This document shows, in pieces, positions 150 through 18,782 of a stretch of 32,000 nucleotides of DNA. Every line of letters starts with the position of its first letter. The first letter of the stretch is position 1. The notes beneath the pieces are model-generated. The model did not search any database. It had not been told where the DNA came from and saw only the letters and a program-made list of their open reading frames with translations. Origin of the DNA: Nostoc punctiforme PCC 73102 (GTDB taxonomy: Bacteria > Cyanobacteriota > Cyanobacteriia > Cyanobacteriales > Nostocaceae); NCBI RefSeq assembly GCF_000020025.1, contig NC_010628.1, forward strand, positions 2,550,001-2,582,000, written 5' to 3'. Both the position numbers and the translations under genes were made by a program.

Positions 150-911
150 TCATTCGCAAAACTTTTCCAGCGATTCTCTAATATCGCTCAAAATATCTGC
201 CGCCATCGCACCATCAATTACCCGATGGTCAAAAGTCATACTCAAACGCATCACAGGAGCAATTTTAATTTCCTCCTTTTGTACAACAGCCTGCGATTGA
301 ATTTGTCCCAATCCAAAAGTGAGTGTAGTTCCTCCTACCGAAAAAAAGCTGTTAATTGATTTGTGGCCGAGTGAAGAAACCGAGAATGTACCCAGGCGGC
401 TTCTCCGTCTTTTTAAATCGGCAAGAATCAAACCAAATATCAATTCTGCTAAGAACAAAGGAAGTTTTTGTAACTTTTTCAGAGCAGCGTATTCCTGAAT
501 ATTATCAAAATCATTTAATTTGTAATAATCAATGGTGTTTTGAATTCCTTGTAAAGAAATTTGGTTAGCATGAGGAATTAAACCAGGAAGAACTACACGC
601 TGCTCACCTATTTTTTTGTCCAAAGCAAACTTTGCGCTTACAGTATCAGACTGCGCTAACTTCGGTAATAATCCCCCTAAAAGACTGCTATTAGCTTCTG
701 GATATTTAGAGAGAACTCGTGCAGCCGCATAGATAAAATAAGTGATGATGCTCAATTTAGTTTGTGCCAGTGTAGCCGAACCTTCTCGTAAATTGAGAAT
801 TTTCGTCATGTCTACATCTGTATCTATAAAAACAGGACTGCAAGCTCTGGCATAGTTTAAAAAAGCAAAGGTATGTTTCCGTTCATTGGGAAAAGGCAGA
901 ATGTTAATCAT
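150..911 (-). CDS. 2-oxoacid dehydrogenase E2-type acyltransferase catalytic domain protein (stand-alone, no lipoyl domain)
   Basis: The C-terminal motif SMTFDHRVIDGAMAADIL matches the DHRxxDG catalytic His motif of E2 and chloramphenicol-acetyltransferase-fold acyltransferases. I place the start at the ATG at 911 (MINILPFP...), because the longer track ORF (to 1016) would overlap the upstream ACP gene. Confidence 0.75.
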   Translation of the reverse strand: MINILPFPNERKHTFAFLNYARACSPVFIDTDVDMTKILNLREGSATLAQTKLSIITYFIYAAARVLSKYPEANSSLLGGLLPKLAQSDTVSAKFALDKKIGEQRVVLPGLIPHANQISLQGIQNTIDYYKLNDFDNIQEYAALKKLQKLPLFLAELIFGLILADLKRRRSRLGTFSVSSLGHKSINSFFSVGGTTLTFGLGQIQSQAVVQKEEIKIAPVMRLSMTFDHRVIDGAMAADILSDIRESLEKFCE

Positions 912-930
912 AAAGGTTGAATATTCTTGC

Positions 931-1152
931 TTACTGAATAGACTCGTAAATGTCTTTGATATTACGTGCTTGCAGCATAGATAAAACAGAGACTTTCTTA
1001 CCTGTGCGGATTTCAATCGAAGTAATCAAACGCAATAGACCAAGAGAATCCCAGCCTCCTAATTGATCAAAAGGAGTATTAATATCTTGTTCGGCAATCG
1101 GTAATTCTAGTACGTCTTGAATGAGATAAACCAAATCTGTAACGTTATTCAC
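931..1152 (-). CDS. acyl carrier protein (73 aa)
   Basis: GGWDSLGLLRLI carries the DSL phosphopantetheine-attachment serine, and the size is ACP-like. A GTG start at 1152 follows ACAGGAG and overlaps the FkbH stop (GTGAATAA), suggesting translational coupling. The track start at 1206 would lie inside fkbH. Confidence 0.75.
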   Translation of the reverse strand: MNNVTDLVYLIQDVLELPIAEQDINTPFDQLGGWDSLGLLRLITSIEIRTGKKVSVLSMLQARNIKDIYESIQ

Positions 1153-3061: not shown

Positions 3062-3071
3062 GATTGATTCC

Positions 3072-4106
3072 TTACACTCTTGATAGTGCTAAACCACCTT
3101 TAATCCATTTGGATGATTCGACTGTAATGCAAAAAGCTCGTTGCCCTTGATGCATAATTGACTCCAAATTTTGCAGCTGAATGAAAGGTAAAGCATTAGC
3201 TACATTTCCGGTTTCTGTAACGCAATGTACTGCTTTCTCTACAGGAATATCCATGAACTCAACAATGCGTTTGCTCATATTTCCTGAAAGTTGAGGAGGC
3301 AATATAAAATCAATATCATGTAACTCCCATTCCACTGCATCCATGAGAGATTCCAATATTTCTTTCGCCAAAACCGGGACTGCCTTTTCTATAGCTTTAT
3401 AGTCTTCTTTAACAGCTTGTGGAAGTTTTGTATCACCTGCTGGAGGTACAGCAAACCAATTGAGTATTTGACCTGGTTCTTTGTCTAAACCTGTTAGTTG
3501 GTTCAGCACGTATTCGATTGTAAAACCTGTTTTGTTCTCTTCGCTTGTCAAAACTGCTGCACCAGCACCATCACCAAACAAAACATAATTTACTAGTTCA
3601 CCTGACGGCATATTATTAAAGTCACGGTTAAAATCTGCAAATCTAGAGCAAATATCACCGCCAATTACTAAACCAACTTTGTAGCTACCACTAAGTAAAA
3701 ATTGCTGGGCGACATCTAAGCACTGAACTGCGCCACTGCATCCAGATTGTAGCTGATATGTTGGGACTAAGTTGATTCCTAGTTTTTCTGCAACCAAGTT
3801 CACTGTAGCAGGCATGAGAAAATCTGGAGTGCCTGTTGCCATAACTATAAATTCAATATCTTGGATTGAATAACCAGAATTTTGAATTGCCTCTTTAGCA
3901 GCATGAGCGCATATTTCTGCTAATGTATGGGTTGTTTCTTGGGTAACAAGGTCAACGGCAAAATACCGTCTTTTACTACCAATAAAGACCTCAATCCAAT
4001 CTTTATTTATATTGAATATTTCTGCAAGTTGTTTGTTTTCAACTGGTTTACCTGGTAAAAAAGTGCCTAGCCCAGCGATAGTAACTGTGCATTTTGCGTC
4101 TGTCAT
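3072..4106 (-). CDS. KASIII (FabH)-like thiolase-fold enzyme, atypical active site
   Basis: Aligns by eye to E. coli FabH. QSGCSGAV matches AAACAGF (nucleophilic Cys present), VLFGDGAGAAVL matches IIFGDGAGAAVL, and ETGNVANALP matches RHGNTSAASVP (Asn present). The HQAN block is replaced by LPPQLSGNM, so His becomes Pro. The stop lies 10 nt before the fkbH ATG, with an AGGAA in between. Confidence 0.85.
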   Translation of the reverse strand: MTDAKCTVTIAGLGTFLPGKPVENKQLAEIFNINKDWIEVFIGSKRRYFAVDLVTQETTHTLAEICAHAAKEAIQNSGYSIQDIEFIVMATGTPDFLMPATVNLVAEKLGINLVPTYQLQSGCSGAVQCLDVAQQFLLSGSYKVGLVIGGDICSRFADFNRDFNNMPSGELVNYVLFGDGAGAAVLTSEENKTGFTIEYVLNQLTGLDKEPGQILNWFAVPPAGDTKLPQAVKEDYKAIEKAVPVLAKEILESLMDAVEWELHDIDFILPPQLSGNMSKRIVEFMDIPVEKAVHCVTETGNVANALPFIQLQNLESIMHQGQRAFCITVESSKWIKGGLALSRV

Positions 4107-5804: not shown

Positions 5805-6578
5805 TTATGAGATAGATGCATTTCTCCATTCTTTTGGAGGACGCTTATGAATCTGGCGAAATAAGCGGATGAAATAACCTGCATCTAGATATCCAACTTT
5901 AGTAGCAATTTGATTGATGGATTCATCGCTATTGAGCAGCAAAGAGCGGGCTTGTGTCATCCGGCGCTCAACAATCCAATCGTGTACTGTTCGCTTAGTT
6001 TGACGCTTGACTAAATGTGTCAAGTAAGCATTAGAGTATCCTGCTGCTTGAGCAACATCAGAAAGGCTGATTTGTTGATGATAATTCTCTTCAATAAATT
6101 GGAAGACTCTACTAAGTTTAGAGCTAGTAGGATAAAAATTTGTAGTGTCGGTAGATTCTGATTCTTTAGGTGATTGCCGCTGATTAAGATACCACTGTTT
6201 AAGAATTTTTTGCTTTTCTAATCGAGCAGCGATCGCTCCTACTAATTCTTCTACTGAACAAGGTTTAGTCAGATAATCATCTGCACCTAAATTCATGCCT
6301 TTACGTAGTTCGGCTTTGCTAAGTTTAACAGTCAGAAAAATAAAAGGAATAATCGCTGTCACAGGATTTTGGCGTAGTCTACTCAGAACACCATAACCAT
6401 CAAGTTCTGGCATCGAAACATTGCAAAGTACTAAATCCGGTGAATATTCCTCTGCACGCTGGACACCAACCATGCCATTCTCTGCACCAATAGTATCAAA
6501 ACCTTTAGATTTTAGAGAATTGACAAAAAGGTTGCGGGTTTGTGTCTCATCTTCAATCACTAATATATTGTTCATCAT
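5805..6578 (-). CDS. response regulator with AraC-type HTH output; receiver domain has Asn at the phospho-acceptor position
   Basis: Receiver domain features are ILVIEDE, PDLVLCNVSMPELDG, IIPFIFLTVK and ADDYLTKP. The C-terminal AraC/XylS HTH is shown by SLSDVAQAAGYSNAYLTHLVKRQT...YLDAGYFIRLFRQIHKRPPKEWR. Start placed at the ATG at 6578, preceded by AGGAGAA. Confidence 0.85.
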   Translation of the reverse strand: MMNNILVIEDETQTRNLFVNSLKSKGFDTIGAENGMVGVQRAEEYSPDLVLCNVSMPELDGYGVLSRLRQNPVTAIIPFIFLTVKLSKAELRKGMNLGADDYLTKPCSVEELVGAIAARLEKQKILKQWYLNQRQSPKESESTDTTNFYPTSSKLSRVFQFIEENYHQQISLSDVAQAAGYSNAYLTHLVKRQTKRTVHDWIVERRMTQARSLLLNSDESINQIATKVGYLDAGYFIRLFRQIHKRPPKEWRNASIS

Positions 6579-6951
6579 TTCTCCTGCTAATGATTTACTA
6601 AGATACTTTTCAGTAGTTAGTTGTAAACAAAGCGAATACATCTAGCATCTCTCAATCTTTTTTCAAAAGAGCGATGACGAAGCGTGTAAAAGCTTATCTG
6701 CTACAGCAGCTACATTCATTCGCAAACCTTGTTATTTATAGATTGCCAGCTCTTAAAGATTTACACCAGTAAATATCTAAAATTTAAGGATCAACTTAAT
6801 GATTAACTGTTTTTCTACTAGTTGAAGCTGATTAGATATCCAAATGGCTTAACTTTTAAAGAATGTTAGCCAATAACTTAGCGATCGCAACTTGACTTAA
6901 AGAAGAATTCAGAATCGATTATGGGGATTCTCATTTGAACGAGTTAGACAT

Positions 6952-7019: not shown

Positions 7020-7358
7020 TTATTCTATAGAACCGCCCATCTCTACCCACTCTGTTATGAGTGCATATAAAACCGATCGCATCGTTACTTGTTTCTGCTT
7101 ACAGAGAACTTTGAACTGATACTTTAGATTTTTTGGGACGTACCCTTTAATCTCTTCTAATTCTTCTATAACCAAGTTATTAGTTATTTCAGGAATTGGT
7201 GCGCCTATTTGTATCCATTGGTGAATTAAAGTTTCTAATATTTCACTCATCTCTACGTTTTTCTGCACGCAGAAAACTTTGAATTGAATTTTTAGTTGTT
7301 TTGGTATATTGCCCTTAACTACTGTAAATTCTTCCATTTCGTCTCGAAGCACTATCAT
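7020..7358 (-). CDS. hypothetical protein with two tandem ribbon-helix-helix (ParG/Arc-like) repeats
   Basis: Internal duplication: GNIPKQLKIQFKVFCVQKNVEMSEILETLIHQWIQIG versus GYVPKNLKYQFKVLCKQKQVTMRSVLYALITEWVEMG. Each unit fits the RHH pattern of a beta strand, then FKxxC, then a helix ending LIxxW, as seen in ParG-type proteins. Confidence 0.5.
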   Translation of the reverse strand: MIVLRDEMEEFTVVKGNIPKQLKIQFKVFCVQKNVEMSEILETLIHQWIQIGAPIPEITNNLVIEELEEIKGYVPKNLKYQFKVLCKQKQVTMRSVLYALITEWVEMGGSIE

Positions 7359-7961: not shown

Positions 7962-8228
7962 TTACAATTTAGATGCATTCTCGTGGTGCTGGGCGAGGTA
8001 ACATGAAGCACGAAAACGCAACTCAATCAACTGGTTGTACAGCGGGTTGAGCTTACACAAAGGTGGAATGTACATAATCAGATAGCCAAATAAGTTGATG
8101 TTGCGTTCAAATGGACAAGTAGATGGAATGACTCGGCATAACAATTGCGCCAATGCAGTATTATGAATTTCGATAGTATCTAGCTTTTGTTGTACTATTT
8201 GTAGTATATCCAATTTGTGTACATTCAT
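7962..8228 (-). CDS. small protein resembling the 'Mo-dependent nitrogenase C-terminal' domain family
   Basis: LCRVIPSTCPFERNINLFGYLIMYIPPLCKLNPLYNQLIELRFRASCYLAQ matches my memory of the conserved CPFER...IPPLCKLNPLY...LRFRA core of that cyanobacterial family. Start placed at the ATG at 8228, 7 nt after GAGGGA; the track start is a TTG. Confidence 0.55.
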   Translation of the reverse strand: MNVHKLDILQIVQQKLDTIEIHNTALAQLLCRVIPSTCPFERNINLFGYLIMYIPPLCKLNPLYNQLIELRFRASCYLAQHHENASKL

Positions 8229-8442
8229 AGTGAGTTCCCTCAAATTACAGAGTTCACATCATCCCTGAGCAGTTCCGGTTACCACAGGGGATGCAAGAAG
8301 AGATATATAGATATCAAGTCTGCGATCGCTCTTGCTCTGCTAAACTTTACTCAAACCTGATTACTTGTCAGTTTGCCAATTCTCAAAAATTTTAACCAGT
8401 CAATATCTATAAGTTAAGCAGCAATTTAAAGGTGGATCGGAT

Positions 8443-9397: not shown

Positions 9398-9481
9398 AAT
9401 CTAAAACTATGAGTGGCTGATTAAGGTTTTCGGATGGATGTTAAATAAAAAAAGACCTAAGCACTTTTTAATTTTCTCTAT

Positions 9482-9501
9482 AAAAGGACTTGAGTCCTTT
9501 T
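9482..9501. terminator. A/T-flanked hairpin AAAAGGAC-TTGA-GTCCTTTT (terminator-like)
   Basis: An 8-bp stem with a tetraloop, then a T run on the plus strand and an A run before it, so it could act on both strands. The same 16-nt core occurs in reverse-complement orientation at 19286..19301. Confidence 0.35.
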
Positions 9502-9712: not shown

Positions 9713-11581
9713 ATGAGTTCAACACATTGTCCTGTAAATCCTCCCACACATCAATATTTGGAGCAAAATATGTTGGTATTATCAGAGGCAACTACACAAT
9801 TAAAGTATCCATCGAAGGCTTTCGTTTCTTTCCCGGAAAGTAACTCATTGATTGCAGACATCCAAGCAAGTACGTCGTTGGATACATTTGCTTTCAATAA
9901 TCAAGACTCAGAGTCGATTTCAGTTGCTTCTGCAATTGTGAAAATGCTAGAAGACTTGGGAGTGGAATATGCGTTTGGTGTTTCCGGAGGTGCGATCGCT
10001 CCTGTATGGTACAAACTACAACATAGTTCAATTAAGTTACTGCACTTTCGTCACGAAGCCGGAGCAGCCTTTGCAGCCACCGAAGCCTATTTTGCGAGTG
10101 GTCGCCCGGTTGTAGTGTTTACGACATCAGGGCCGGGGATCACCAATGCCCTGACTGGATTATTAGCTGCACGCTGGGAAGATGCCAAAGTAATTTTTCT
10201 GTCGGCTTCTACCTCTGCACCACAGCGAGGACGTTGGGCACTTCAAGAAACCAGCACCTACACCATGCCCAGTGCCGGACTTTTTACCTCGGATTCCCTC
10301 TTCCATTACGCAACTACTCTCGAATGTAGTGAGGAACTTCCAGAAGTCTATCGAAGGCTAGCCAAAGGTTTAGCCCGACCCGATGGCTTTGTAGCACACT
10401 TGAGTATCCCCACTAACATCCAAACCAATTCAGTCGAGAAATCTTTGCCACCAGTCACACTCTCTTTTGCTGCACCAACAGCCAGTGACGAAGCCATCTC
10501 AGAATGTGGACACTTACTTTCGGAAGGGCCATTTGCCATCTGGGTTGGCTTTGGTGCGCGGTTTGCAGCGGCTGAGATTCGCCAGCTAGCTGAGAGGACA
10601 GGGGCAGGGGTGATGTGTTCACCACGTGGGAAAGGTATTTTTCCAGAGGATCATCCTCAATTTGTGGGGATCACGGGTTTTGCTGGACATGAATCAGTTC
10701 TGAGATATATGCAAGAACACCGTCCTCTAAGGACATTAGTACTCGGAACACGTCTTGGTGAATTTACCTCATTTTGGAACCCCGCGATGATCCCTTTGCG
10801 GGGATTTTTGCATGTTGACATCAATCCAGATGTGCCAGGAACCGCTTACCCATCTAGCGAGACGATCGCTATTCAGTCTGACGTGAAAATGTTTGTCAAA
10901 GCCTTACTCAAGCGCTTTCCGAAGCGGCAAAATCGGGCAAAAAAACAGTCTTTGCCTAGACCTGAAAGGAGTGTAATCAATGCCAGCACAAATAGTCCGG
11001 TGCGGCCTGAAGTACTGATGAATCTCATGCAACGAGTGATTGTTGAAGGTAGCGATGCCATCGTCATGGCTGAAGGAGGCAATTCATTTGCTTGGGCAAT
11101 TAACCTACTGCGATTTAGCAAACCGGGACGTTTCCGGGTCAGCACTGGATTTGGGGCTATGGGTCACTTCGTTACTAGCGTTGTGGGTGCAGCTTTAACA
11201 CATCAAGGTAAAGCGATCGCGATCGTTGGAGATGGTGCCATGCTGATGAACAATGAAGTCAGCACAGCCGTGAGGTATCAGATACCTGCGGTTTGGATTG
11301 TCCTCAATGATGCACGCTACAACATGTGCGAACAAGGTTCCCAAATGCAGGGTTACGAGAGCATGGATGTAGAAATACCACAGACAGATTTCGTCATGCT
11401 TGCCCGCAGCATGGGAGCCGACGGCATCCGTGTTGAAAAAGAGTCTGATATCCAAGCAGCATTAGAGATAGCAATGGCTTCTACTAGTCCATTCGTTATT
11501 GATGTACTTATCGACCATACTAGATTGGCACCGATTGGAACTCGTATTTTTAGTTTGATGTCACAAGGCGCTAAAAATTAG
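9713..11581 (+). CDS. thiamine-diphosphate-dependent enzyme of the acetolactate-synthase / acyloin-synthase fold
   Basis: The three-domain ALS layout is visible: GVEYAFGVSGGAIAPVW, FRHEAGAAFAATEAY (catalytic Glu), GPGITNALTGLLAA, and the ThDP-binding motif VGDGAMLMNNEVSTAV...VLNDARYN. About 65 aa of N-terminal sequence has no counterpart in ALS enzymes, so the true start is uncertain. Confidence 0.9.
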   Translation: MSSTHCPVNPPTHQYLEQNMLVLSEATTQLKYPSKAFVSFPESNSLIADIQASTSLDTFAFNNQDSESISVASAIVKMLEDLGVEYAFGVSGGAIAPVWYKLQHSSIKLLHFRHEAGAAFAATEAYFASGRPVVVFTTSGPGITNALTGLLAARWEDAKVIFLSASTSAPQRGRWALQETSTYTMPSAGLFTSDSLFHYATTLECSEELPEVYRRLAKGLARPDGFVAHLSIPTNIQTNSVEKSLPPVTLSFAAPTASDEAISECGHLLSEGPFAIWVGFGARFAAAEIRQLAERTGAGVMCSPRGKGIFPEDHPQFVGITGFAGHESVLRYMQEHRPLRTLVLGTRLGEFTSFWNPAMIPLRGFLHVDINPDVPGTAYPSSETIAIQSDVKMFVKALLKRFPKRQNRAKKQSLPRPERSVINASTNSPVRPEVLMNLMQRVIVEGSDAIVMAEGGNSFAWAINLLRFSKPGRFRVSTGFGAMGHFVTSVVGAALTHQGKAIAIVGDGAMLMNNEVSTAVRYQIPAVWIVLNDARYNMCEQGSQMQGYESMDVEIPQTDFVMLARSMGADGIRVEKESDIQAALEIAMASTSPFVIDVLIDHTRLAPIGTRIFSLMSQGAKN

Positions 11582-11620
11582 AGCATTGCATACTTGCAGA
11601 ATGACTTGAGATTTGTGACT

Positions 11621-11723
11621 AGGACTTACGCCAAATATCTTTCCAACTCTCATTTCTTCGTGTCCTCTGCGCCTCTGCGGTAGCCTGCGGCAAGCCACTT
11701 CTCTACGAGACGCTACGCGAACG
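11621..11723. repeat. composite small dispersed repeat / MITE-like filler between the ThDP and KASIII genes
   Basis: Begins with AGGACTTACGC, which is also part of the terminal repeat of the IS at 25414/27837. It ends with CACTTCTCTACGAGACGCT (11696..11714), which is identical over 19 nt to 18938..18956. Confidence 0.45.
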
Positions 11724-11776
11724 TGTTTACGTTATTCCATATAATCAGCAACCCCAAAATTCAAGGAGATATCATA

Positions 11777-12916
11777 GTGAATTACCCAGTAGGCATTAGA
11801 TCGCTAGCATTGAGCTTGCCAAGCATCAAGCGTACAAACGATTACTATACAAATAAGTATCCCGAAGCGATCGCTCAGTCCGAGCAAAAAAGTTTAGCAA
11901 GATTGTTTTCCCTTGCTGGCTCTACCCCCAGCAACGAGTTTGACTCAGAAATGTTGCCCTATATCAAAGACCCTTTTCGCGGCACTGTCCACCGATGGGT
12001 ACTAGCACCAGATGAATCCTCACTCATGCTGCAAGAGCGTGCAGCTCGTGAAGCTCTGGACGCAGCAAAACTGACTCTCAAAGAAATCGATCTCATGCTC
12101 GTCGCCTCAGTTTGGCCTGAACAAATTGGATTTGGCGATGCTGCTTTTCTCGCTGGTAAACTTGGCTTAGAAGGTGCTGCGTGGAATCTTGATGCAGCCT
12201 GTGGCGTAACCCCAGTTGCACTACAAACTGCCTTTGCCTTAGTCCGAGCCGGAGAGTATCGCAATGTACTAGTGGTCATTTCATGTGCATACTCTCGTTT
12301 TTTCGATGAAGACGATACCCTGTCATGGTTCATGAGTGATGGTGCTGGAGCTTGCGTAGTCAGTTCACTCGCACCAAATCAAGGCATCCTTGGCACAAAG
12401 ACCATTCATACTGCTGCTTTATGTAATAGCTTTTTTGCCAAACTCACCGAGGATGACCAGGGTAATCCACACATACACATGCGGATGGGCAAAGGCGCAA
12501 ATAAAGCCATCCGCGAAACGGCTGTAGGGCAACTGCGTACTTGTTGTGAAGGCGCACTGGCGGCAGCCAATGTCAAACTTGAGGAAATTGACTTTTTTAT
12601 TTTCAATACATCCACTGCTTGGTCAGCAAGCTTCTGCACACGCGTACTAGGCATTGACCCAGAGCGGACAATCAATCTTTACTCTGAGTATGCAAACATT
12701 GGTCCAGTAATCACCATAGCCAATCTGTACTATGCTGCACAACTGGGCAAGATTCACGAAAATGACTTAGTTCTTATTTATGGTTTGGGTGCAGCAGGTG
12801 CCGCCTCTGCAAGTGTCATGCGTTGGGGCGATGTAGCATTAGGTTCTGTTCCAAATCTCCACCAACCTGAAATAATACTGAAAAGTTCCTTAGATCGTAG
12901 CTTAGTTGTTTGCTAA
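11777..12916 (+). CDS. KASIII-like thiolase-fold enzyme, atypical active site (Cys / Asn / Asn)
   Basis: NLDAACGVTPVAL matches the FabH AAACAGFTYAL block (Cys present) and MSDGAGACVV matches FGDGAGAAVL. FIFNTSTAW replaces VPHQANLRI, so His becomes Asn. YANIGPVIT matches HGNTSAASV, so Asn is kept. Start set at the GTG at 11777, 8 nt after AAGGAG; the track start at 11723 lies inside a repeat element. Confidence 0.8.
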   Translation: MNYPVGIRSLALSLPSIKRTNDYYTNKYPEAIAQSEQKSLARLFSLAGSTPSNEFDSEMLPYIKDPFRGTVHRWVLAPDESSLMLQERAAREALDAAKLTLKEIDLMLVASVWPEQIGFGDAAFLAGKLGLEGAAWNLDAACGVTPVALQTAFALVRAGEYRNVLVVISCAYSRFFDEDDTLSWFMSDGAGACVVSSLAPNQGILGTKTIHTAALCNSFFAKLTEDDQGNPHIHMRMGKGANKAIRETAVGQLRTCCEGALAAANVKLEEIDFFIFNTSTAWSASFCTRVLGIDPERTINLYSEYANIGPVITIANLYYAAQLGKIHENDLVLIYGLGAAGAASASVMRWGDVALGSVPNLHQPEIILKSSLDRSLVVC

Positions 12917-13018
12917 ATATAGGACTCATATTTGATTGCGTAAGAAATCCGGTTTACACCTAACGCAAAAGGCAAGAAGCAATTAATACTTTTCCTATTC
13001 CCTATTCCTCATTCCCTT

Positions 13019-13996
13019 ATGAAAAAACAATTTTTGGCGACAGGTTTCTTTTTGTTGTCTTTGATGTTTCCACTCAAAGCTTCGGCACAAAATTATGACG
13101 ATATTTATGTCTTTGGTGACAGCTTATCGGATACGGGTAATGTATTTAATTTCACAAATGGAGCTATTCCCCCAAACCCGACCTACTTTAATGGACGTTT
13201 TTCCAATGGCCCAATTTGGGTGGAATATCTCGCCTCTGAGTTAGGGTTAACTTTCAATCCGAACAACAACTTCGCCTTCGGTGGTGCAACTACAGGAACC
13301 GATAATTTAGGACTAAGTTTCCTACCAGGATTAAAACAAGAAATTAATGATTTTACAACAACAAATAACTCTGCTAATCCGAACGCGCTTTATATCATTT
13401 GGGCTGGTACTAATGATTATTTGGAGTACTTTTATGGTAATACTCCTAACCCAACAGAATCTGTCAGCAATTTATCCTCAGCAATAACCTCCCTGGCTGG
13501 TGTGGGCGCTGAAAATATTTTGGTAGTTAATTTACCAGATTTAGGAAAGTTTCCAGTTACAGGTGACAATAGTCAAACAGCAAGCGCACTAAGCACTTTC
13601 ACAAATGTACATAACTCTGATTTAACGAAGACTATTAATTTGTTAAACCAGGAACTAAGTCCTGAGACTAATATTATTCCTCTCGATGTTAATTCTTTAT
13701 ATAATCGCATCATTGCTACTCCCGAAGAATTCGGTTTTACAAATGTCACCGACTCTTGCATCGGAGATTTATCGGTCGTGCCCATTGAGGTTCTGGTGAA
13801 GCCAGTTGTATGTAATCCAGACCAGTTTTTATTCTGGGATGAAGTGCATCCAACAACTGCTACTCATCAGCTAATTGGAGAATTAGCATTTTTAGCATTG
13901 AAGTCGGCCTCTGTCCCTGAATCTTCTAATGTGTTAGGAGTATTGATATTTGCTGCTTTATGTGTGATTTCGCTACGAAAACGTCATAGCTATTAG
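13019..13996 (+). CDS. secreted GDSL/SGNH esterase-lipase with C-terminal PEP-CTERM sorting signal
   Basis: Signal peptide MKKQFLATGFFLLSLMFPLKASA. GDSL block I is IYVFGDSLSDTGN and block V is FWDEVHPT. The C-terminus VPESSNVLGVLIFAALCVISLRKRHSY has a PE-S motif, a hydrophobic helix and a basic tail, which is the PEP-CTERM architecture. Confidence 0.85.
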   Translation: MKKQFLATGFFLLSLMFPLKASAQNYDDIYVFGDSLSDTGNVFNFTNGAIPPNPTYFNGRFSNGPIWVEYLASELGLTFNPNNNFAFGGATTGTDNLGLSFLPGLKQEINDFTTTNNSANPNALYIIWAGTNDYLEYFYGNTPNPTESVSNLSSAITSLAGVGAENILVVNLPDLGKFPVTGDNSQTASALSTFTNVHNSDLTKTINLLNQELSPETNIIPLDVNSLYNRIIATPEEFGFTNVTDSCIGDLSVVPIEVLVKPVVCNPDQFLFWDEVHPTTATHQLIGELAFLALKSASVPESSNVLGVLIFAALCVISLRKRHSY

Positions 13997-14037
13997 TCAG
14001 TGCAAAACAAACTAATCAAAAACAAAGGAGTATGCGC

Positions 14038-14790
14038 ATGAGTAGCCAATTGTATGGAAAAGTTGCCTTGGTGACTGGCGCTTCATCAGGTATAGGTAAA
14101 GCTACGGCGATCGCATTTGCCCGCGCTGGAGCCAAAGTTGTGGCTGCTAGCCGCCGCACCACCGAGGGAGAAGAAACCGCGCACTACATCCAAGAAATTG
14201 GAGGAGAAGCTATTTTCATCAAAACTGATGTGTCAAAGGCTGCTGATGTAGAGACACTAATTGAGAAAACCATAGATATTTATGGTCGTTTAGACTGTGC
14301 TTGCAACAATGCCGGACTTGGGGGTGCAGCCAGCCCGATCGCGGATATGTCGGAAAAAGACTGGGATCAACTGGTTGACGTAAATTTGAAAGGAACCTGG
14401 CTTTGTTTGAAGTACCAAATCAGGGCAATGCTCAAACAGGGAAGTGGGGCGATCGTCAATATCGCTTCCGCCGCTGGTGTGGTCGGTTTCCCTGGTTTTA
14501 CTGGCTACTGTGCTACTAAAGGTGGGGTCATCGCTTTAAGCAGAGCCGCAGCTATGGAGTATGCCAAAGCAGGTATCCGGATTAATGTTGTCAGTCCTGG
14601 TGCGATCGCCACTGATATGCTAGCTACGTTACCTACAGATGTACTTGCTCAACTCACAGCAATGCATCCCATCGGACGCATTGCCAAGCCTGAAGAGGTG
14701 GCTGAAAGTGTAGTCTGGTTATGTTCGGATGGTTCTTCATTTCTCGTCGGGCACAACATGATGGTTGATGGAGGATATACCGCTCAGTAA
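14038..14790 (+). CDS. short-chain dehydrogenase/reductase (FabG-like)
   Basis: Contains GKVALVTGASSGIGKATA (TGxxxGxG), NNAG, and YCATKGG (YxxxK). Start taken at the ATG at 14038, 8 nt after AAGGAG. Confidence 0.9.
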   Translation: MSSQLYGKVALVTGASSGIGKATAIAFARAGAKVVAASRRTTEGEETAHYIQEIGGEAIFIKTDVSKAADVETLIEKTIDIYGRLDCACNNAGLGGAASPIADMSEKDWDQLVDVNLKGTWLCLKYQIRAMLKQGSGAIVNIASAAGVVGFPGFTGYCATKGGVIALSRAAAMEYAKAGIRINVVSPGAIATDMLATLPTDVLAQLTAMHPIGRIAKPEEVAESVVWLCSDGSSFLVGHNMMVDGGYTAQ

Positions 14791-15254: not shown

Positions 15255-18200
15255 CTAAAAATTACACGCCCCTAAAACTTTTAAAGTTGCAATAGTCGCT
15301 TCAGTTAAATCAGTCACGCCAGTAATATTCATTCCTTCATAAGGTCTTTCGCATCTGAGAGTTTTTAGGCACTCACCTGTTTCTATATCCCAAAGTCTAA
15401 TCGTCTCATCTTCGCTACCACTAGCCAAAATCTTACCTTGAGGATTAAACGCAACCGACCAAACCCACTTGTTATGTCCTGACAAAGTTTTTATTTCTTT
15501 ATTGGTGCTTAAATCCCACAGCTTGATTGTTTGATCTCCGCTACCACTGGCTAAAATGCAACCATCTATACTGATGGCAGATGAGTATACGCAATTAGTA
15601 TGCCCCTGCAAGGTTCTCAGACACTTACCTGTGCTGATATCCCACAGTTTCACTGTTTGATCTCCGCTGCTACTTGCTAAAGTCATACCATCAGGACTAA
15701 AAACGACTGACCAGATCCAGTCAGTATGACCTTCCAGAACTTGAATGCAACTACCAATGCAGACATCCCACAACCTTACTGTTTGGTCATGGCAACCACT
15801 GGCTAGTGTCTGACCATCGGGACTGAAAGCAACTGACCAAATCCGCTGAGTGTGCCCTTGCAAGGTTTTCAGACATTTACCTGTGTTGACATCCCACAGT
15901 TTTATACTTTGGTCATCACTGCCAGTTGCTAGGATTTTACCATCAGGACTAAAGGCAACTGAGATAATCCGATTACTATGTCCGCCCAAGGTTTTGAGAC
16001 ACTGACCTGTGTTGGCATTCCACAGTTTCACAGTTTGATCCTCACTGCCACTAGCAAGGAGGTTCCCGTCTTGGCTGAGGGAAACTGATGTGACGCGATT
16101 ACTATGTCCCCGCAAAGTTTTTAAGCAAAGACCAGTGCTAGTATCCCAAAGTTTCACTGTTTGGTCGTTATTGCCACTTGCAAGAATTTGACCATTGGAA
16201 CTGAAGGTCACCGACCAGATGCCATTACAATAACCTTGTAAGGTCTTGAGACATCCACCAGTATTAACATCCCACAGCCTCACTGTTTGGTCATCACTGC
16301 CACTGGCGAGCATTTTACCATCAGGACTAAAGGCAACTGACCATACCCGACTGCCATGCCCCTTGAGAGTTTTGAGACAAAGACCAGTGTTAACATCCCA
16401 TAGTTTTACTGTTTGGTCATCACTGCCACTTGCTAGGCGATCGCCATCTGAACTAAAAGCAACTGAATTCACCAAATCAGTATGACTCTGGAAAGTATAA
16501 AGACATTCACTAGTGTTAATATCCCATAGCCTTACCGTTCGGTCATGACAACCACTAATTAGCTTATCACCATCTGGACTGAAAGCAACTGACTGTACCC
16601 TATGGGTGTGTCCCACCAAAGTTTTGATGCATTGACTAGTACTAATATCCCACAGTCTGATGGAGGAATCATCATTTCCGCTAGCAAGGATTGTACCATC
16701 AGGACTAAAGGCTACTGACCAGACTCGGCTACTGTGTCCCTGGAGAGTCTGAATACATTGCCCAGTGCTAGTATCCCACAATTTCACCGTTGTGTCTTCA
16801 CTACTACTTGCTAGTGTCTGACCATCGGAACTGAAGGAAACTGACCAGATTCCAGCACTATGACCCTGGAAGGTGGCAAGGCATTGCCCAGTGCTAGTAT
16901 CCCACAACTTCACTGTTTGGTCATCACTGCCACTAGCAAGGAGATGACCATCGGGGCTAAAAGTTACAGGCCAGATAAAACCTGTGTGTCCTTTGCAAAT
17001 GAACAGTTGTTTTCCATCAGCAACTTGATACAGGCGAACCTCACCATTAGTATCTCCTGTAGCTAATAGTTTGCCATCAGGACTAAATGCCACTGCATGA
17101 ATACCGCCAATGGTTTCTGCAAAAACACATTTAGCTAAATTAGCATTTACAAAACTAGCATTTTGCAAATTTACATTCCGCAAATCTGCTTGCCAAATAG
17201 TTAGATGAGAAAAATCACTACCACTAAGGTCAGTTCCCAAATAACAAAGCAGATTAATAATATTTCCAGCTGTATAACTTTGTTCTAGAGGTGATGTTTC
17301 TCTTAGGGTTGTGAGAATTTGAATTAGATGATTTTCCAGAGTTCTTTGGCTTCTAAAGATGGCAAAAAGCCCTTCGATGACTGGTTTTAGGATCAGGTGA
17401 ATTTGACTTTCTCTTACATAGTCTTTTGTCGTTGCCTTGACTAAAGCATGGCATCGGAAAATCTCGATATTATGAGTGCTAATTTCTTGACAAACTTGCT
17501 CTACTAAGCGATTAATCACATATTCCATAACTACAGGCTGGAGAGTGAATAGTGCTTCGCTTTTTTCAACTAGAGAGCGCCTCACCAAAGATTCCAAAAC
17601 CTCCAAGAACTTTTGGAATGTTAATGCTGATATAATATCTTTTTGTAATTCCGAAAGTGAAACTGGCTCATGATTAATTGCCAGCCAATACATTATTTCT
17701 TTTTCTAAATTTGATAAACGTTCAAACTGCTGTTCTAAAATATCCCAAATATCACCGAAAACAACTGCATCTTGTTTTAAAAATTCCGAAACATTACCAC
17801 CAAATAAATCTTGAATAGTTGTCGCAACTACTTTTAAAGCTAACGCATTGCCTCCATAACGTGCAACTAATGTTCTTAGTTCATCATCTGAAGCTGATAT
17901 TCCTTTTATTTTTAAAATTTCTTGTCCGTCATTTGCCAAAAGACCTTTGAGCAGAAATGAACGAACACATAAACCACCTCCTTCCATAGATGCAACTTCT
18001 TTCGGTTTTTCCCTACTTGTTAGGATTAAACAGCTTTGTTGTTCCGTTTCTCCTAATCGTTTTAGAAGTTCGCTATATCCTTCGTATCCATCTCGATAAA
18101 GTCCGGCCCGACTACCGCTGCGTAAAATCGACTCCATATTATCTAGTATTAATAAACAGCGATGCTCTCGCAGATAATGTAGCAGTCGTGTTAGTCTTGG

Positions 18201-18782
18201 AGCTGTGCTTTCTGGGAGAATTGCTTCTGTTTCCCGTTCATCAGAAAGAAATTGGATTAAGCTAGCTAAAAGCGTATTGAGTGGAGGAGCATCTTGTAGC
18301 GATCGCCAAATAATGTACTCAAAATTCTCCTTAATTTGTTCTACAAGCTTGACAGAGAGAGAAGTTTTCCCAATCCCCCCCATACCTAAAATTGCCACTA
18401 TCTGACAGCGTTCTTTTAAAATCCATTGCTCTAATGTGGCTATTTCTTCTGTGCGTCCATAAAAAACCGATCCACCAATTGCTTCTCCCCAATCTAAATG
18501 TCGAGATTTGTCTGAATTTGTAAAATCAGCTTTATCTAACTCTAAATTGAAAGCTTGAAAAAAAAGCTCAAGTGTCTTTTTATCAACTCCTTCCCCACGA
18601 GATAATACCTTAGAAACTGTAACAGTATTTACTTTTACGCGTTCACTTAAATCTTCAAGGGTATATCTATTTCCGTAATTTTCTCTGTCTTCAAGGGCAA
18701 TTTTACCAGATTGAAGCTTTTGTAATCCTTCCAGTGTAAGAATAAGACCGCGCTTGCGTTTTTGCTTTTGAACCTGCGTCAT
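15255..18782 (-). CDS. STAND NTPase: N-terminal HTH, NB-ARC, short pentapeptide-repeat linker, 14 WD40 repeats
   Basis: The N-terminus [26 protein letters not shown] is HTH-like. NB-ARC motifs are GMGGIGKTS (Walker A), CLLILDNME (Walker B), LILTSRE and [10 protein letters not shown] (GLPLAL-like). The pentapeptide stretch is [22 protein letters not shown]. Then come 14 units of about 42 aa, of the form GH..-[23 protein letters not shown]. The C-terminal tail is [26 protein letters not shown]. Confidence 0.9.
15339..17117 (-). repeat. 126-nt tandem coding repeats (14 WD40 blades)
   Basis: The plus-strand string ccatcaggactaaa recurs at 15940, 16318, 16696 and 17074, a spacing of 378 nt (3 x 126). 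Other strings such as gtttggtcatcactgccact also recur between blades. Confidence 0.85.

What the first reader, a model, noticed from the sequence alone, without database searches (positions are those of the whole stretch)
9713..14790. Operon pairing a ThDP acyloin-synthase-fold enzyme with an atypical KASIII-like enzyme, a PEP-CTERM esterase and an SDR
**Seen in the sequence:** four co-directional plus-strand genes.
- An ALS-fold ThDP enzyme with a roughly 65-aa N-terminal extension.
- A thiolase-fold KASIII homologue with its Cys retained, but with FIFNTSTAW in place of PHQAN (His becomes Asn).
- A secreted GDSL esterase.
- A classical SDR.

No ilvN or ilvC partner is present, so this does not look like branched-chain amino-acid biosynthesis.

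**Established knowledge:** ThDP ALS homologues make acyloins in secondary metabolism, for example ScyA in scytonemin and XclA in xenocyloins. In the xenocyloin pathway the acyloin is then acylated by ketosynthase-like enzymes (XclB/XclC). My recollection, which needs checking, is that the cyanobacterin furanolide pathway also couples a ThDP enzyme (CybE) with a dedicated lactone-forming enzyme (CybF).

**Inference:** this operon may make an O-acylated acyloin or a derived gamma-butyrolactone or furanolide. The SDR would adjust a ketone and the esterase would act outside the cell. It faces a tetronate-type cassette only 4 kb away, so two different five-membered-lactone chemistries may be juxtaposed.
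Basis: partly seen in the sequence, partly recalled or inferred. Interest (0 to 1): 0.7.

Follow-up and report, generated by a model that had tools for sequence, protein, structure and literature searches.

The report
Orphan furanolide-type synthase operon in Nostoc
This four-gene operon of Nostoc punctiforme starts with close relatives of CybE and CybF, the enzyme pair that builds furanolide lactones, but it belongs to an unstudied sister branch that lacks the usual precursor genes and instead sits beside a secreted esterase and a large regulator-like protein, so it probably makes an unknown lactone that may be a signal.

Summary
The window is Nostoc punctiforme PCC 73102: the operon proteins match ACC80713-ACC80715 and ACC80717 exactly.

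- **Closest relatives.** The ThDP enzyme (9713-11581) passes NCBIfam's "ScyA-related TPP-binding enzyme" cut-off and is 69% identical to the cyanobacterin acyloin synthase CybE. The KASIII-like protein (11777-12916, GTG start) is 62% identical to the furanolide synthase CybF.
- **Active site.** The Cys-Asn-Asn site (His replaced by Asn) is a signature of the whole CybF family, not a peculiarity of this gene.
- **A second pair.** N. punctiforme already has a canonical furanolide (nostoclide, ncl) cluster about 50 kb away. This operon is a second, orphan pair. It lies just beyond the regulator AraC_PKS1 and the nostovalerolactone (nvl) genes.
- **A separate branch.** Across 74 related loci, the pairs linked to an ammonia lyase and a CoA ligase separate in an NJ tree from a larger branch that includes this operon. 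That branch lacks those two genes. It carries a PEP-CTERM GDSL esterase in 46 of 60 loci and a convergent NB-ARC/WD40 STAND gene in 53 of 57.

Most likely the operon makes a furanolide- or butenolide-like lactone. The product and acyl donor are unknown, and a signalling role is possible but unproven. I call it a new variant of a known kind.

The parts
9713..11581 (+). CybE-type ThDP-dependent acyloin synthase (NCBIfam 'ScyA-related TPP-binding enzyme'). N. punctiforme WP_234711072.1 (622 aa); ACC80713.1 uses the alternative start at 9770 (603 aa).
   Evidence: Pfam TPP_enzyme N/M/C. NF035927 scores 1077 bits against a cut-off of 1000, while the ScyA equivalog scores 952 against a cut-off of 1020. 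69% identity over 550 aa to the 623-aa TPP protein of the cyb cluster. Best solved structure is BbmA, 8x3x, E 1e-73; a 2025 paper describes the solved enzymes of that study as CybE homologues (PMC12395478). Exact-sequence match in N. punctiforme.
11777..12916 (+). CybF-type KASIII-fold enzyme (putative furanolide/butenolide synthase), ACC80714.1, 379 aa. GTG start with an AAGGAG ribosome-binding site. Active site Cys142 / Asn277 / Asn307.
   Evidence: Pfam ACP_syn_III and ACP_syn_III_C. Scores far below the FabH cut-offs (112 against 249 bits). 62% identity over 359 aa to the 376-aa KAS of the cyb cluster, E 2e-169. Motif table, tree, start codon.
13019..13996 (+). Secreted GDSL/SGNH esterase with a signal peptide and a PEP-CTERM-like C-terminal sorting tail, ACC80715.1.
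   Evidence: Lipase_GDSL E 1e-30. An orthologue is present in 46 of 60 loci of the branch. Conserved signal peptide and VPEPS-TM-basic tails. TIGR02595 scores 15.4 bits here and 15.6-26.7 bits in orthologues.
14032..14790 (+). Classical SDR oxidoreductase, an optional tailoring gene of the cassette. Some relatives have an O-methyltransferase in its place.
   Evidence: adh_short / adh_short_C2. PRK06172 scores 393 bits against a cut-off of 336. An orthologue follows the cassette in 15 of 60 loci, and a PF00891 O-methyltransferase in 5.
15255..18782 (-). Convergent STAND protein, ACC80717.1: conserved N-terminal domain (possible HTH), NB-ARC NTPase, pentapeptide repeats and 14 WD40 repeats. Candidate sensor or regulator partner of the cassette.
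   Evidence: NB-ARC at residues 113-216, E 2.5e-14; weak LacI-type HTH at 41-77, E 0.022. WD40 repeats. An orthologue lies convergently downstream in 53 of 57 loci with enough sequence. The linked proteins form one clade.
9450..9500 (+). Tandem direct repeat (AAAAGACCTAAGCACTTT, then AAAGGACTTGAGTCCTTT 33 nt further on), about 215-260 nt upstream of the ThDP gene. Candidate operator.
   Evidence: Conserved block in the alignment of upstream regions. Exact-pattern hits lie only at this position, in nine loci (eight distinct sites) of the closest sub-branch. Absent upstream of the other sub-branch.
7020..7358 (-). Small protein with two ribbon-helix-helix-like repeats. It accompanies the cassette in 9 loci, including Gloeothece, where it is the first gene of the operon.
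   Evidence: Weak 56B_RHH / ParG hits, below cut-off. Synteny.
5805..6641 (-). Response-regulator / AraC-type transcription factor. 100% identical to the N. punctiforme PCC 73102 protein and inferred to be AraC_PKS1 (RS10525).
   Evidence: Pfam Response_reg + HTH_18. 100% identity and coverage to P0232. The gene order of the neighbouring nvlD-I genes matches the paper's description (PMC9324945).
4368..5662 (-). Sfp/HetI-type phosphopantetheinyl transferase (4368-5123) and an unusual 153-aa acyl carrier protein (5201-5662). They accompany the AraC and RHH genes next to different gene clusters.
   Evidence: The same module occurs in Nostoc FACHB-973 and Anabaena cylindrica.
150..4106 (-). End of the nostovalerolactone (nvl) cluster: acyltransferase (NvlG-like, 150-1016), small ACP (about 931-1206), FkbH glyceryl-ACP synthase (1145-3061) and FabH-like NvlD (3072-4106).
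   Evidence: Naming follows PMC9324945.
19889..21223 (-). Tyrosinase-family copper oxidase. It follows the STAND gene in the closest relatives. Tyrosinases also occur in the cyb and mac furanolide clusters.
   Evidence: Pfam Tyrosinase E 2e-42. Synteny in L001, L008, L055 and L067. Tyrosinase in the cyb cluster and MacK in the mac cluster (PMC13288894).

Best explanation
The operon is a second, orphan CybE/CybF-type cassette of Nostoc punctiforme PCC 73102.

**Shown**
- The first two proteins are close homologues of the furanolide core enzymes.
- They have the same gene order, and the KAS protein has the same Cys-Asn-Asn active site as CybF.

**Inferred from that homology**
- The ThDP enzyme decarboxylates one 2-oxo acid and adds it to a second, giving an alpha-hydroxy-beta-keto acid (an acyloin).
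- The KASIII-fold enzyme O-acylates that tertiary alcohol from an acyl thioester and closes a five-membered lactone. The product would be a furanolide- or butenolide-type compound.
- The SDR then adjusts a carbonyl.
- The signal-peptide, PEP-CTERM esterase acts on the exported product, or on a precursor ester, at the cell surface.

**Open**
- No ammonia lyase or CoA ligase is present, so the acyl donor is unknown. It could be cinnamoyl-CoA borrowed from the ncl cluster about 50 kb away, or a primary-metabolism acyl/enoyl or malonyl thioester.
- The cassette belongs to a distinct, widespread branch that is inherited together with an NB-ARC/WD40 STAND gene. In the closest relatives it also comes with the AraC_PKS1 / RHH / ACP / PPTase module next to varied gene clusters.
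For: **Identity of the window.** Exact protein matches to N. punctiforme ACC80714, ACC80715 and ACC80717, and to WP_234711072 (the 622-aa form of ACC80713), on the 8,234,322-bp chromosome. The AraC protein is 100% identical.

**Homology.**
- NF035927 'ScyA-related TPP-binding enzyme' scores 1077 bits against a cut-off of 1000. The same family captures the TPP proteins of the cyb-like and ncl-like clusters (1045 and 1018 bits).
- L081 reproduces the published cyb cluster. It holds DAHP synthase, ammonia lyase, CoA ligase, OMT, a TPP gene of 1872 bp, a KAS gene of 1131 bp, NmrA, Rieske, halogenase, MT and tyrosinase. The gene sizes match PMC8777810 (supplement).
- The window proteins are 69% and 62% identical to that pair, and 64% and 62% identical to the ncl-type pair of a 99.3%-identical genome.

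**Active site.** Cys-Asn-Asn is shared by both branches.

**Operon structure.** The pair is adjacent and in the same order in every locus that retains both genes.

**Branch structure.** The NJ tree separates the PAL/4CL-linked pairs from the STAND/GDSL-linked pairs. Counts:
- STAND/GDSL-linked branch: STAND gene in 53 of 57 loci, GDSL in 46 of 60, PAL nearby in 1 of 60.
- PAL/4CL-linked branch: PAL and 4CL in 12 of 14 loci, GDSL in 0, STAND in 1.

**Hints of an aromatic, furanolide-like product.** A phenol-type O-methyltransferase replaces the SDR in 5 loci, and a tyrosinase follows in the closest relatives.

**Precedent for pairs without CybB/CybC.** Myxobacterial enhygrolide producers encode only co-located cybE/cybF homologues (PMC8777810).
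Against: - No product has been assigned, and nothing here measures chemistry.
- Two of the four 'signature' furanolide genes (ammonia lyase, CoA ligase) are missing from the operon and from nearly all loci of its branch.
- The KAS protein is in a sister branch, not inside the characterised clade. Eight clade-discriminating residues include Gly143 and Thr145, beside the catalytic Cys142. The acyl donor or even the ring chemistry may therefore differ.
- The published CybF mechanism needs an alpha,beta-unsaturated acyl group, and no source for one is encoded here.
- The SDR is present in only 15 of 60 loci, so it is not core.
- The primary paper on CybF (D'Agostino 2022) could not be read. Its catalytic residues were taken only from alignment to FabH.
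Confidence: 0.6

Rival explanations
1. Hormone circuit. The cassette is a signal synthase whose furanolide- or butenolide-like product is sensed by the convergent STAND protein and/or by AraC_PKS1 and the RHH protein. The PEP-CTERM esterase would process or degrade the signal outside the cell. This may be the unidentified mediator that switches on AraC_PKS1. This reading is compatible with the best explanation and adds a biological role to it.
For: - The STAND gene is convergent in 53 of 57 loci, across Nostocales and Gloeothece and in different genomic contexts.
- The linked STAND proteins form one clade that excludes all the more distant homologues.
- Identity to the window of the KAS and STAND proteins co-varies (r = 0.87, n = 25). 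One genome with two cassettes has a matching pair of STAND genes (L008 and L047).
- In the closest sub-branch, the cassette plus RHH, AraC, ACP and PPTase lies next to three different kinds of gene cluster.
- A conserved tandem repeat lies upstream of the ThDP gene.
- Krumbholz 2022 shows that furanolides (nostoclides) act as mediators in this strain. It also reports an unidentified compound that activates AraC_PKS1 (PMC9324945).
Against: - The evidence is all genomic context.
- The reverse linkage is imperfect. Of six informative contigs carrying a STAND protein of that clade, three lack the cassette. In L090 the same syntenic site has lost it.
- The closest relative, Nostoc sp. C117, lacks the STAND gene downstream.
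- The HTH assignment of the STAND N-terminus is not significant (E 0.02-0.3), and the AF2 model failed.
- Much of the adjacency within Nostoc could be inherited synteny.
Confidence: 0.2
2. Auxiliary nostoclide enzymes. The pair simply uses cinnamoyl-CoA from NclD/NclE of the ncl cluster and makes nostoclide congeners with different 2-oxo-acid building blocks.
For: - The ncl-type cluster (ACP, KS, FabH, PAL, CoA ligase, TPP, KAS) lies about 50 kb away in a 99.3%-identical genome.
- Cassettes of the closest sub-branch often sit near a canonical furanolide cluster (L087, L010, L008/L061, L007/L055).
- CybE and CybF are substrate-promiscuous (PMC12395478).
Against: - About 50 loci of the same branch have no PAL or CoA ligase within 10 kb.
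- The pair has diverged to 62-64% identity from the ncl pair, with changes beside the catalytic Cys.
- It has its own esterase, SDR and regulator-like partners.
- The main text of the 2022 paper discusses only the ncl sub-cluster's similarity to the cyanobacterin cluster and its ammonia lyase NclD. It never mentions a ThDP enzyme.
Confidence: 0.12
3. Xenocyloin-like chemistry. The KASIII-fold enzyme only O-acylates the acyloin and no lactone ring forms. The esterase would reverse or trim the ester.
For: - No source of an unsaturated acyl donor is encoded.
- A dedicated esterase is conserved in 46 of 60 loci.
- From my own knowledge, not tested here: KS-like acyltransferases acylate acyloins in the xenocyloin pathway.
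Against: - The closest characterised homologue, at 62% identity, is a ring-forming furanolide synthase with the same Cys-Asn-Asn site.
- No Xcl sequences could be compared.
Confidence: 0.06
4. Primary metabolism or scytonemin. The ThDP protein is an acetohydroxy-acid synthase or ScyA, and the KAS protein is a FabH.
For: The general fold matches, and older database names say so (acetolactate synthase large subunit; 3-oxoacyl-ACP synthase III).
Against: - Acetolactate synthase models score 190-217 bits against cut-offs of 510-976.
- The ScyA equivalog scores 952 bits, below its cut-off of 1020.
- FabH models score 107-113 bits against cut-offs of 249-292 (all).
- The catalytic His is replaced by Asn.
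- No Pfam or NCBIfam scan of the window's ORFs returned an IlvN/IlvC or a scytonemin-family hit.
Confidence: 0.02

Closest known systems
CybE/CybF of the cyanobacterin (cyb) cluster of Tolypothrix sp. PCC 9009, and the homologous pairs of the ncl (nostoclide) and mac (maculalactone) clusters
   Same: - Same two families in the same order and of almost the same sizes (622/379 aa here, 623/376 aa in cyb).
- 69% and 62% identity.
- Same NCBIfam family for the ThDP enzyme.
- Same Cys-Asn-Asn active site in the KASIII-fold enzyme.
- Tyrosinase and NAD(P)-dependent tailoring genes nearby.
   Different: - No ammonia lyase (CybB) and no CoA ligase (CybC).
- Placed in a sister branch of the tree, with discriminating residues next to the catalytic Cys.
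- Carries a PEP-CTERM GDSL esterase and a convergent NB-ARC/WD40 gene, which the canonical clusters lack.
- The product is unknown.
Co-located cybE/cybF homologues of the myxobacteria Plesiocystis pacifica and Enhygromyxa salina (proposed deoxyenhygrolide/enhygrolide genes)
   Same: A bare ThDP + KASIII-like pair without a dedicated ammonia lyase or CoA ligase, proposed to draw cinnamoyl-CoA from elsewhere in the cell.
   Different: - They are much more distant. The paper reports 39-44% identity between the myxobacterial proteins and CybE/CybF, and the one myxobacterial KAS locus found here is 44% identical to the window KAS.
- The paper reports no esterase or STAND partner.
- Their role is also only proposed.
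ScyA (scytonemin acyloin synthase)
   Same: The closest named NCBIfam relative of the ThDP enzyme (952 bits), with the same N-terminal extension. The scytonemin pathway also uses a PEP-CTERM protein (ScyF).
   Different: - The score is below the ScyA equivalog cut-off of 1020 bits.
- No scytonemin-family protein was found among the neighbours scanned.
- ScyA is not paired with a KASIII-fold enzyme (from my own knowledge).
FabH (KASIII) of fatty-acid synthesis
   Same: Thiolase/KASIII fold. The catalytic Cys and the second Asn are conserved. The best solved-structure hits are FabH proteins (4dfe, E 7e-23).
   Different: His244 is replaced by Asn. Scores are less than half the family cut-offs. 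There is an extra N-terminal region of about 85 aa before the FabH-alignable core.
Streptomyces gamma-butyrolactone/butenolide autoregulator systems (AfsA-type synthase plus receptor, embedded in antibiotic clusters)
   Same: An analogy of logic only: a small lactone synthase and regulator genes sitting beside variable biosynthetic gene clusters.
   Different: No AfsA homologue and no TetR-type receptor are present. The enzymes and the candidate receptor (STAND, AraC-RR, RHH) are unrelated. No signalling has been shown.

Membership tests
CybE-type / 'ScyA-related' ThDP acyloin synthases (NCBIfam NF035927) | Whole-protein score above the curated cut-off of the family model | tested here: met
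   1077 bits against a cut-off of 1000. The cyb-cluster TPP protein scores 1045 in the same model.
CybE-type / 'ScyA-related' ThDP acyloin synthases (NCBIfam NF035927) | Three-domain ThDP architecture with the catalytic Glu and the GDG...N(N/D) cofactor motif | tested here: met
   Pfam N/M/C domains. Glu115 and GDG506...ND532 are read directly from the sequence.
CybE-type / 'ScyA-related' ThDP acyloin synthases (NCBIfam NF035927) | Acyloin condensation of two 2-oxo acids to an alpha-hydroxy-beta-keto acid | not testable with these tools
   This is a biochemical activity. It is known for CybE from the literature (PMC13288894, PMC12395478).
CybF-type furanolide synthases | KASIII fold with a Cys-Asn-Asn active site (FabH His replaced by Asn) | tested here: met
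   Cys142, Asn277 and Asn307. The same motifs occur in the cyb-cluster protein (alignment) and in the PAL/4CL-linked proteins.
CybF-type furanolide synthases | Encoded immediately downstream of the CybE-type gene | tested here: met
   The gap is 195 nt here and about 12-15 nt in relatives. The order is conserved in every locus that retains both genes.
CybF-type furanolide synthases | Placement inside the clade of characterised enzymes (cyb/ncl/mac type) | tested here: not met
   The NJ tree places it in the sister, STAND/GDSL-linked branch. This is a distance tree only, without bootstrap support.
CybF-type furanolide synthases | O-acylation, Morita-Baylis-Hillman-type cyclisation and 1,4-hydride shift with an enoyl-CoA | not testable with these tools
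   The mechanism is known only from the literature (PMC13288894, PMC8777810).
Canonical furanolide gene cluster (cyb/ncl/mac) | All four signature genes present together: ammonia lyase, CoA ligase, ThDP enzyme and furanolide synthase (CybBCEF) | tested here: not met
   No Lyase_aromatic or AMP-binding gene was found among the window ORFs scanned. They are present in 12 of 14 loci of the other branch and in 1 of 60 loci of this branch. An ncl-type set lies about 50 kb away.
FabH / KASIII of fatty-acid synthesis | Cys-His-Asn triad and a score above the family cut-off | tested here: not met
   His is replaced by Asn. Scores are 112.6 against 249 bits and 107 against 292 bits.
Biosynthetic acetohydroxy-acid synthase (IlvB/G/I) | Score above the equivalog cut-off, with a small regulatory subunit or ilvC nearby | tested here: not met
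   TIGR00118 scores 217.5 against 538 bits. No IlvN or IlvC family hit came up in the ORFs scanned. Whether another ilvB exists elsewhere in the genome was not tested.
ScyA (scytonemin) | Score above the ScyA equivalog cut-off, with scytonemin-pathway (Scy) neighbours | tested here: not met
   952.5 bits against a cut-off of 1020. The neighbours are KAS, GDSL and SDR.
PEP-CTERM sorted proteins | C-terminal PEP motif, transmembrane helix and basic cluster recognised by TIGR02595 | tested here: inconclusive
   The window tail (VPESS...RKRH) scores 15.4 bits against a cut-off of 16. Orthologue tails score 15.6, 17.5, 20.6 and 26.7 bits. The motif is conserved across 48 orthologues. The presence of an exosortase was not tested.
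STAND-type signal-sensing transcription regulators | NB-ARC/NACHT NTPase, a repeat sensor domain and a DNA-binding output domain | tested here: inconclusive
   NB-ARC E 2.5e-14 and 14 WD40 repeats are clear. The conserved N-terminal 90 aa gives only weak HTH hits (LacI E 0.022; profile against PDB E 0.1-0.3), and the AF2 model was unusable.
Xenocyloin XclA / XclB / XclC system | Sequence relationship to XclA (ThDP) and to the XclB/C acyltransferases | not tested

The most novel reading that the evidence does not exclude
The cassette is the synthase arm of a cyanobacterial small-lactone hormone system that is widespread in Nostocales.
- The CybE/CybF-like pair makes a furanolide- or butenolide-type signal.
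- The cell-surface PEP-CTERM esterase matures or quenches that signal.
- The co-inherited NB-ARC/WD40 STAND protein is its receptor. In N. punctiforme, AraC_PKS1 and the tandem-RHH protein would act with it.
- The product is the still-unidentified mediator that switches on AraC_PKS1, and thereby the nostoclide/nostovalerolactone cascade that governs much of the strain's specialised metabolism.
Probability: 0.2. Interest if true: 0.85.

Novelty: new variant of a known kind. Interest (0 to 1): 0.6.

Why it matters
- **Untapped enzymes.** Furanolide chemistry (CybE/CybF) was worked out only in 2022, and genome mining for it has used the four-gene signature CybBCEF. This operon shows that the model strain N. 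punctiforme carries a second pair outside that definition. The pair represents a larger, uncharacterised branch found in dozens of cyanobacterial species. That branch is a pool of enzymes, and probably of lactone products, for a biocatalytic platform that is already in use.
- **A testable link to an open question.** The operon sits directly beside AraC_PKS1, whose activating signal is explicitly unknown. It is also co-inherited with regulator-like genes. That gives a concrete candidate for the top of the cell-density signalling cascade in a genetically tractable cyanobacterium.

Tried and rejected
- **Papers that could not be read.** The primary CybF paper (D'Agostino 2022) and the BbmA/CsmA structure paper are not held. 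The catalytic residues of CybF were therefore inferred only from alignment to FabH.
- **Supplements.** The supplements of Krumbholz 2022 (gene table, RNA-seq) are not held. I could not check whether the operon was drawn inside pks1 or whether it responds to AraC_PKS1. The CybF alignments in the PMC8777810 supplement are images, so only gene sizes were usable.
- **Literature searches that found nothing relevant.** Guessed Npun locus tags, AraC_PKS1 follow-up work, and ScyA + WD40.
- **Structure of the STAND N-terminus.** The single-sequence AF2 model of the first 100 aa was useless (pLDDT 46.6). The profile search against PDB gave only non-significant HTH hits.
- **Upstream motif in the larger sub-branch.** No conserved block or shared k-mer resembling the 9450-9500 repeat was found there. 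The repeat is also absent in Gloeothece and only weakly matched in L077.
- **BbmA Gly484.** The residue mutated in one deposited BbmA structure aligns to an Asn here and in CybE alike, so it gives no specificity inference.
- **Reverse linkage test for the STAND gene.** The result was mixed, not clean, and I lowered the signalling hypothesis accordingly.
- **Other scans.** Promoter/terminator scans were no better than shuffled sequence. Rfam and tRNA scans of the window found nothing.
- **Readings rejected.** A housekeeping AHAS/FabH reading and a ScyA reading were rejected on curated cut-offs.

Full report
**1. What is in the sequence.**

The region holds four co-directional plus-strand ORFs.
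- 9713-11581 encodes a 622-aa protein with the three ThDP-enzyme domains.
- The next ORF runs from 11723. Gene callers and homologues agree on a 379-aa product that starts at GTG 11777, seven bases after an AAGGAG ribosome-binding site. It carries both KASIII domains.
- 13019-13996 is a GDSL hydrolase.
- 14032-14790 is a classical SDR.

Alignment to solved FabH structures shows three things. The catalytic Cys is kept (Cys142). The His of the PHQAN motif is Asn277, within FIFNTSTAW. The final Asn is kept (Asn307).

The GDSL protein has a cleavable-looking signal peptide. Its C-terminal tail is VPESS, then a hydrophobic stretch, then RKRH. This tail scores 15.4 bits against the PEP-CTERM model (cut-off 16). 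Of four orthologue tails carrying the canonical VPEPS, three score 17.5-26.7 bits and one scores 15.6.

The KAS start is 11777. The length of the ThDP N-terminal extension depends on the start chosen: about 65 aa from 9713, or about 46 aa from the GenBank start at 9770.

**2. Where the window comes from.**

Exact-sequence look-up places the proteins in Nostoc punctiforme PCC 73102, on its 8,234,322-bp chromosome. The KAS, GDSL and STAND proteins are ACC80714, ACC80715 and ACC80717. The 622-aa ThDP protein is WP_234711072, and ACC80713 is the shorter 603-aa model of the same gene.

The response-regulator/AraC protein at 5805-6641 is 100% identical to the N. punctiforme protein. To its left lie a 153-aa ACP and a PPTase, then a FabH-like gene, FkbH, a small ACP and an acyltransferase. 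In a 99.3%-identical genome these are followed by a FAD monooxygenase and a FAAL-ACAD megasynthase. That order matches NvlD-NvlI of the nostovalerolactone cluster described by Krumbholz et al. 2022 (PMC9324945).

I therefore infer that 5805-6641 is AraC_PKS1 (RS10525), and that the operon lies just outside the AraC end of 'pks1'. The main text of that paper never mentions a ThDP enzyme, and its supplements were not available.

**3. What the two core enzymes are.**

*The ThDP protein.* It passes the curated cut-off of NCBIfam NF035927, 'ScyA-related TPP-binding enzyme' (1077 bits against 1000). It fails the ScyA equivalog (952 against 1020) and every acetolactate synthase model (at most 217 bits against cut-offs of 510-976).

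*The KAS protein.* It reaches less than half the FabH cut-offs.

*What the literature says.* Furanolide cores are built by CybE, a ThDP acyloin synthase acting on two 2-oxo acids, and CybF. CybF is annotated as a 3-oxoacyl-ACP synthase. It O-acylates the acyloin with coumaroyl-CoA and then performs a Morita-Baylis-Hillman-type ring closure and a 1,4-hydride shift. The ammonia lyase CybB and the CoA ligase CybC supply the acyl donor (PMC13288894, PMC8777810, PMC12395478).

*Recovering the cyb cluster.* A search with a relative of the window KAS recovered a locus (L081) whose gene content reproduces the published cyb cluster. It holds DAHP synthase, ammonia lyase, CoA ligase, OMT, a 1872-bp TPP gene, a 1131-bp KAS gene, NmrA, Rieske, halogenase, MT and tyrosinase.

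*Identities.* The window proteins are 69% (ThDP) and 62% (KAS) identical to that pair. They are 64% and 62% identical to the pair of an ncl-type cluster (ACP, KS, FabH, PAL, CoA ligase, TPP, KAS) that lies about 50 kb away in the 99.3%-identical genome. The cyb-like and ncl-like TPP proteins also fall in NF035927.

*Active site.* Cys-Asn-Asn is found in both the PAL/4CL-linked proteins and the window's relatives. The 'atypical' site is therefore the family signature.

**4. A distinct branch with its own partners.**

A scan of species-representative genomes gave 75 loci. Adding loci from contig look-ups, I compared neighbourhoods and built an NJ tree of the KAS proteins.

Pairs preceded by an ammonia lyase and a CoA ligase fall outside one large branch that contains the window. 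These include the cyb-like and ncl-like loci.

| Feature | PAL/4CL-linked branch (14 loci) | Branch containing the window (60 loci) |
|---|---|---|
| Ammonia lyase and CoA ligase | 12 | ammonia lyase nearby in 1 |
| GDSL esterase orthologue | 0 | 46 |
| SDR orthologue | not counted | 15 |
| Phenol-type O-methyltransferase in place of the SDR | not counted | 5 |
| NB-ARC/WD40 gene | 1 | 53 of the 57 loci with enough downstream sequence (convergent in all but one, L008) |

The arrangement holds in Nostoc, Anabaena, Scytonema, Fischerella, Westiellopsis and the unicellular Gloeothece, with different flanking genes.

Eight alignment positions cleanly separate the two branches. Two of them (Gly143 versus Ser, Thr145 versus Ala) flank the catalytic Cys. 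This argues for a changed acyl pocket.

Several genomes hold two or three pairs from different branches. N. punctiforme itself has this pair in addition to the ncl pair.

**5. The regulator-like neighbours.**

*The convergent STAND protein.* This 1175-aa protein has an NB-ARC NTPase (E 2.5e-14), pentapeptide repeats and 14 WD40 repeats. Its first 90 residues or so are strongly conserved among the linked proteins. They give only weak HTH matches, and a single-sequence structure model failed.

*Evidence for a functional link.*
- A tree of the N-terminal 520 aa puts the cassette-linked proteins in one clade. That clade excludes all the more distant homologues, none of which is linked.
- Identity of the KAS and STAND proteins to the window co-varies (r = 0.87).

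*Evidence against a strict link.*
- In the reverse test, three of six informative contigs carrying a member of that clade lack the cassette. One of them is the same syntenic site with the cassette deleted.
- The closest relative, Nostoc sp. C117, has no STAND gene downstream.

I therefore treat the link as strong context evidence, not proof.

*The closest sub-branch.* Here the cassette is preceded, divergently, by a tandem-RHH protein, the AraC-type response regulator, a roughly 150-aa ACP and a PPTase. This module sits beside an nvl-type PKS (this window, C117, ChiSLP01), a different FAAL-PKS (Anabaena cylindrica) or a canonical furanolide cluster (Nostoc FACHB-973).

*A candidate operator.* A tandem direct repeat at 9450-9500 is conserved upstream of the ThDP gene in exactly these loci and nowhere else.

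**6. Most likely function.**

*Shown:* homology, active-site conservation, operon order and conserved partners.

*Inferred:*
- The ThDP enzyme makes an alpha-hydroxy-beta-keto acid.
- The KASIII-fold enzyme acylates it and closes a five-membered lactone.
- The SDR tailors the product.
- The esterase acts outside the cell.

The occasional O-methyltransferase and the nearby tyrosinase hint at a phenolic, furanolide-like product.

*Unknown:* the acyl donor. Candidates are cinnamoyl-CoA from the ncl cluster, an enoyl or malonyl thioester from primary metabolism, or an acyl group carried on the neighbouring ACP.

I give the furanolide/butenolide-type reading a confidence of 0.6. Rivals:
- An auxiliary role in nostoclide synthesis (0.12).
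- O-acylation without ring closure (0.06).
- Primary metabolism or scytonemin (0.02), which the curated cut-offs reject.

A signalling role (0.2) is compatible with the main reading. Krumbholz et al. showed that nostoclides act as mediators in this strain, and that an unidentified compound activates AraC_PKS1. This operon is the nearest biosynthetic unit to that regulator.

**7. Novelty and verdict.**

The enzyme families and their chemistry are known. The ThDP protein is already named 'ScyA-related' by NCBI. What I did not find in the literature available here is:
- the recognition of this second pair in N. punctiforme;
- the existence of a large STAND/GDSL-linked branch without CybB/CybC;
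- its association with the AraC_PKS1 module.

I classify it as a new variant of a known kind, with interest 0.6. Its product-level claims remain untested, and in this strain the 'tetronate' neighbour is the nostovalerolactone cassette.

Noticed in passing
window 9450-9500: A tandem direct repeat (AAAAGACCTAAGCACTTT, then AAAGGACTTGAGTCCTTT 33 nt further on) lies about 215-260 nt upstream of the ThDP gene. It is conserved at the same position in nine loci (eight distinct sites) of the closest sub-branch and is absent elsewhere. It is a candidate operator for AraC_PKS1, the RHH protein or the STAND protein.
   Followed up: partly
window 4368-7358; L086, L087: The module of tandem-RHH protein, RR/AraC regulator, a roughly 150-aa ACP with an N-terminal extension, and a PPTase accompanies the cassette next to three different kinds of gene cluster. 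These are the nvl PKS, another FAAL-PKS in Anabaena cylindrica, and a furanolide cluster in Nostoc FACHB-973. The role of the long ACP is unknown.
   Followed up: partly
window 7962-8243 (-): An 88-93-aa protein consisting of a 'Mo-dependent nitrogenase C-terminus' domain (PF06967, E 1e-33) lies between the RHH gene and the ThDP gene. It is also present in Nostoc FACHB-973.
   Followed up: no
window 11582-11776: The ThDP and KAS genes are separated by 195 nt here but by only about 12-15 nt in relatives. The spacer contains a GC-rich element (GTGTCCTCTGCGCCTCTGCGGTAGCCTGCGG...) that looks like a Nostoc short dispersed repeat insertion.
   Followed up: no
L023, L028, L031, L034, L045, L077 (KAS genes): A few members of the branch have reverted or varied the active site. 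Four have His at the Asn277 position (FLFHTTSAW). Two have Cys142 replaced by Ser together with His. These are natural variants that could inform the mechanism.
   Followed up: no
L090 1237-10121: This metagenomic contig has the same syntenic site (STAND gene, HAD hydrolase, DUF5895, MltA). The ThDP-KAS-GDSL cassette is missing and is replaced by a 277-aa ORF with no Pfam match. It is a natural loss of the cassette that left an orphan STAND gene.
   Followed up: partly
window 19889-21223 (-): A tyrosinase gene follows the STAND gene here and in L001, L008, L055 and L067. Tyrosinases are also part of the cyb (CybK) and mac (MacK) furanolide clusters.
   Followed up: partly
window 22112-23470 (-): An ORF whose only detected domain is a CHASE2 extracellular sensor domain, followed by predicted membrane segments. 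No recognisable output domain was found within the ORF.
   Followed up: no
window 23776-24692 (-), 26139-27554 (+), 28515-29473 (+): Signs of gene decay to the right of the cluster: a split IS630-like transposase (DDE_3 plus HTH_32 in two ORFs), weak hits to transposase-related families, and an NAD-dependent epimerase broken into two overlapping ORFs.
   Followed up: no
L055 and L007 (Atlanticothrix CENA357, one scaffold); L010: In Atlanticothrix, the STAND and tyrosinase orthologues sit beside the canonical PAL/4CL-linked pair, while the window-type pair lies about 20-30 kb away without them. In L010, PAL and CoA ligase genes follow the STAND gene. The two kinds of pair often share one supercluster.
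   Followed up: partly
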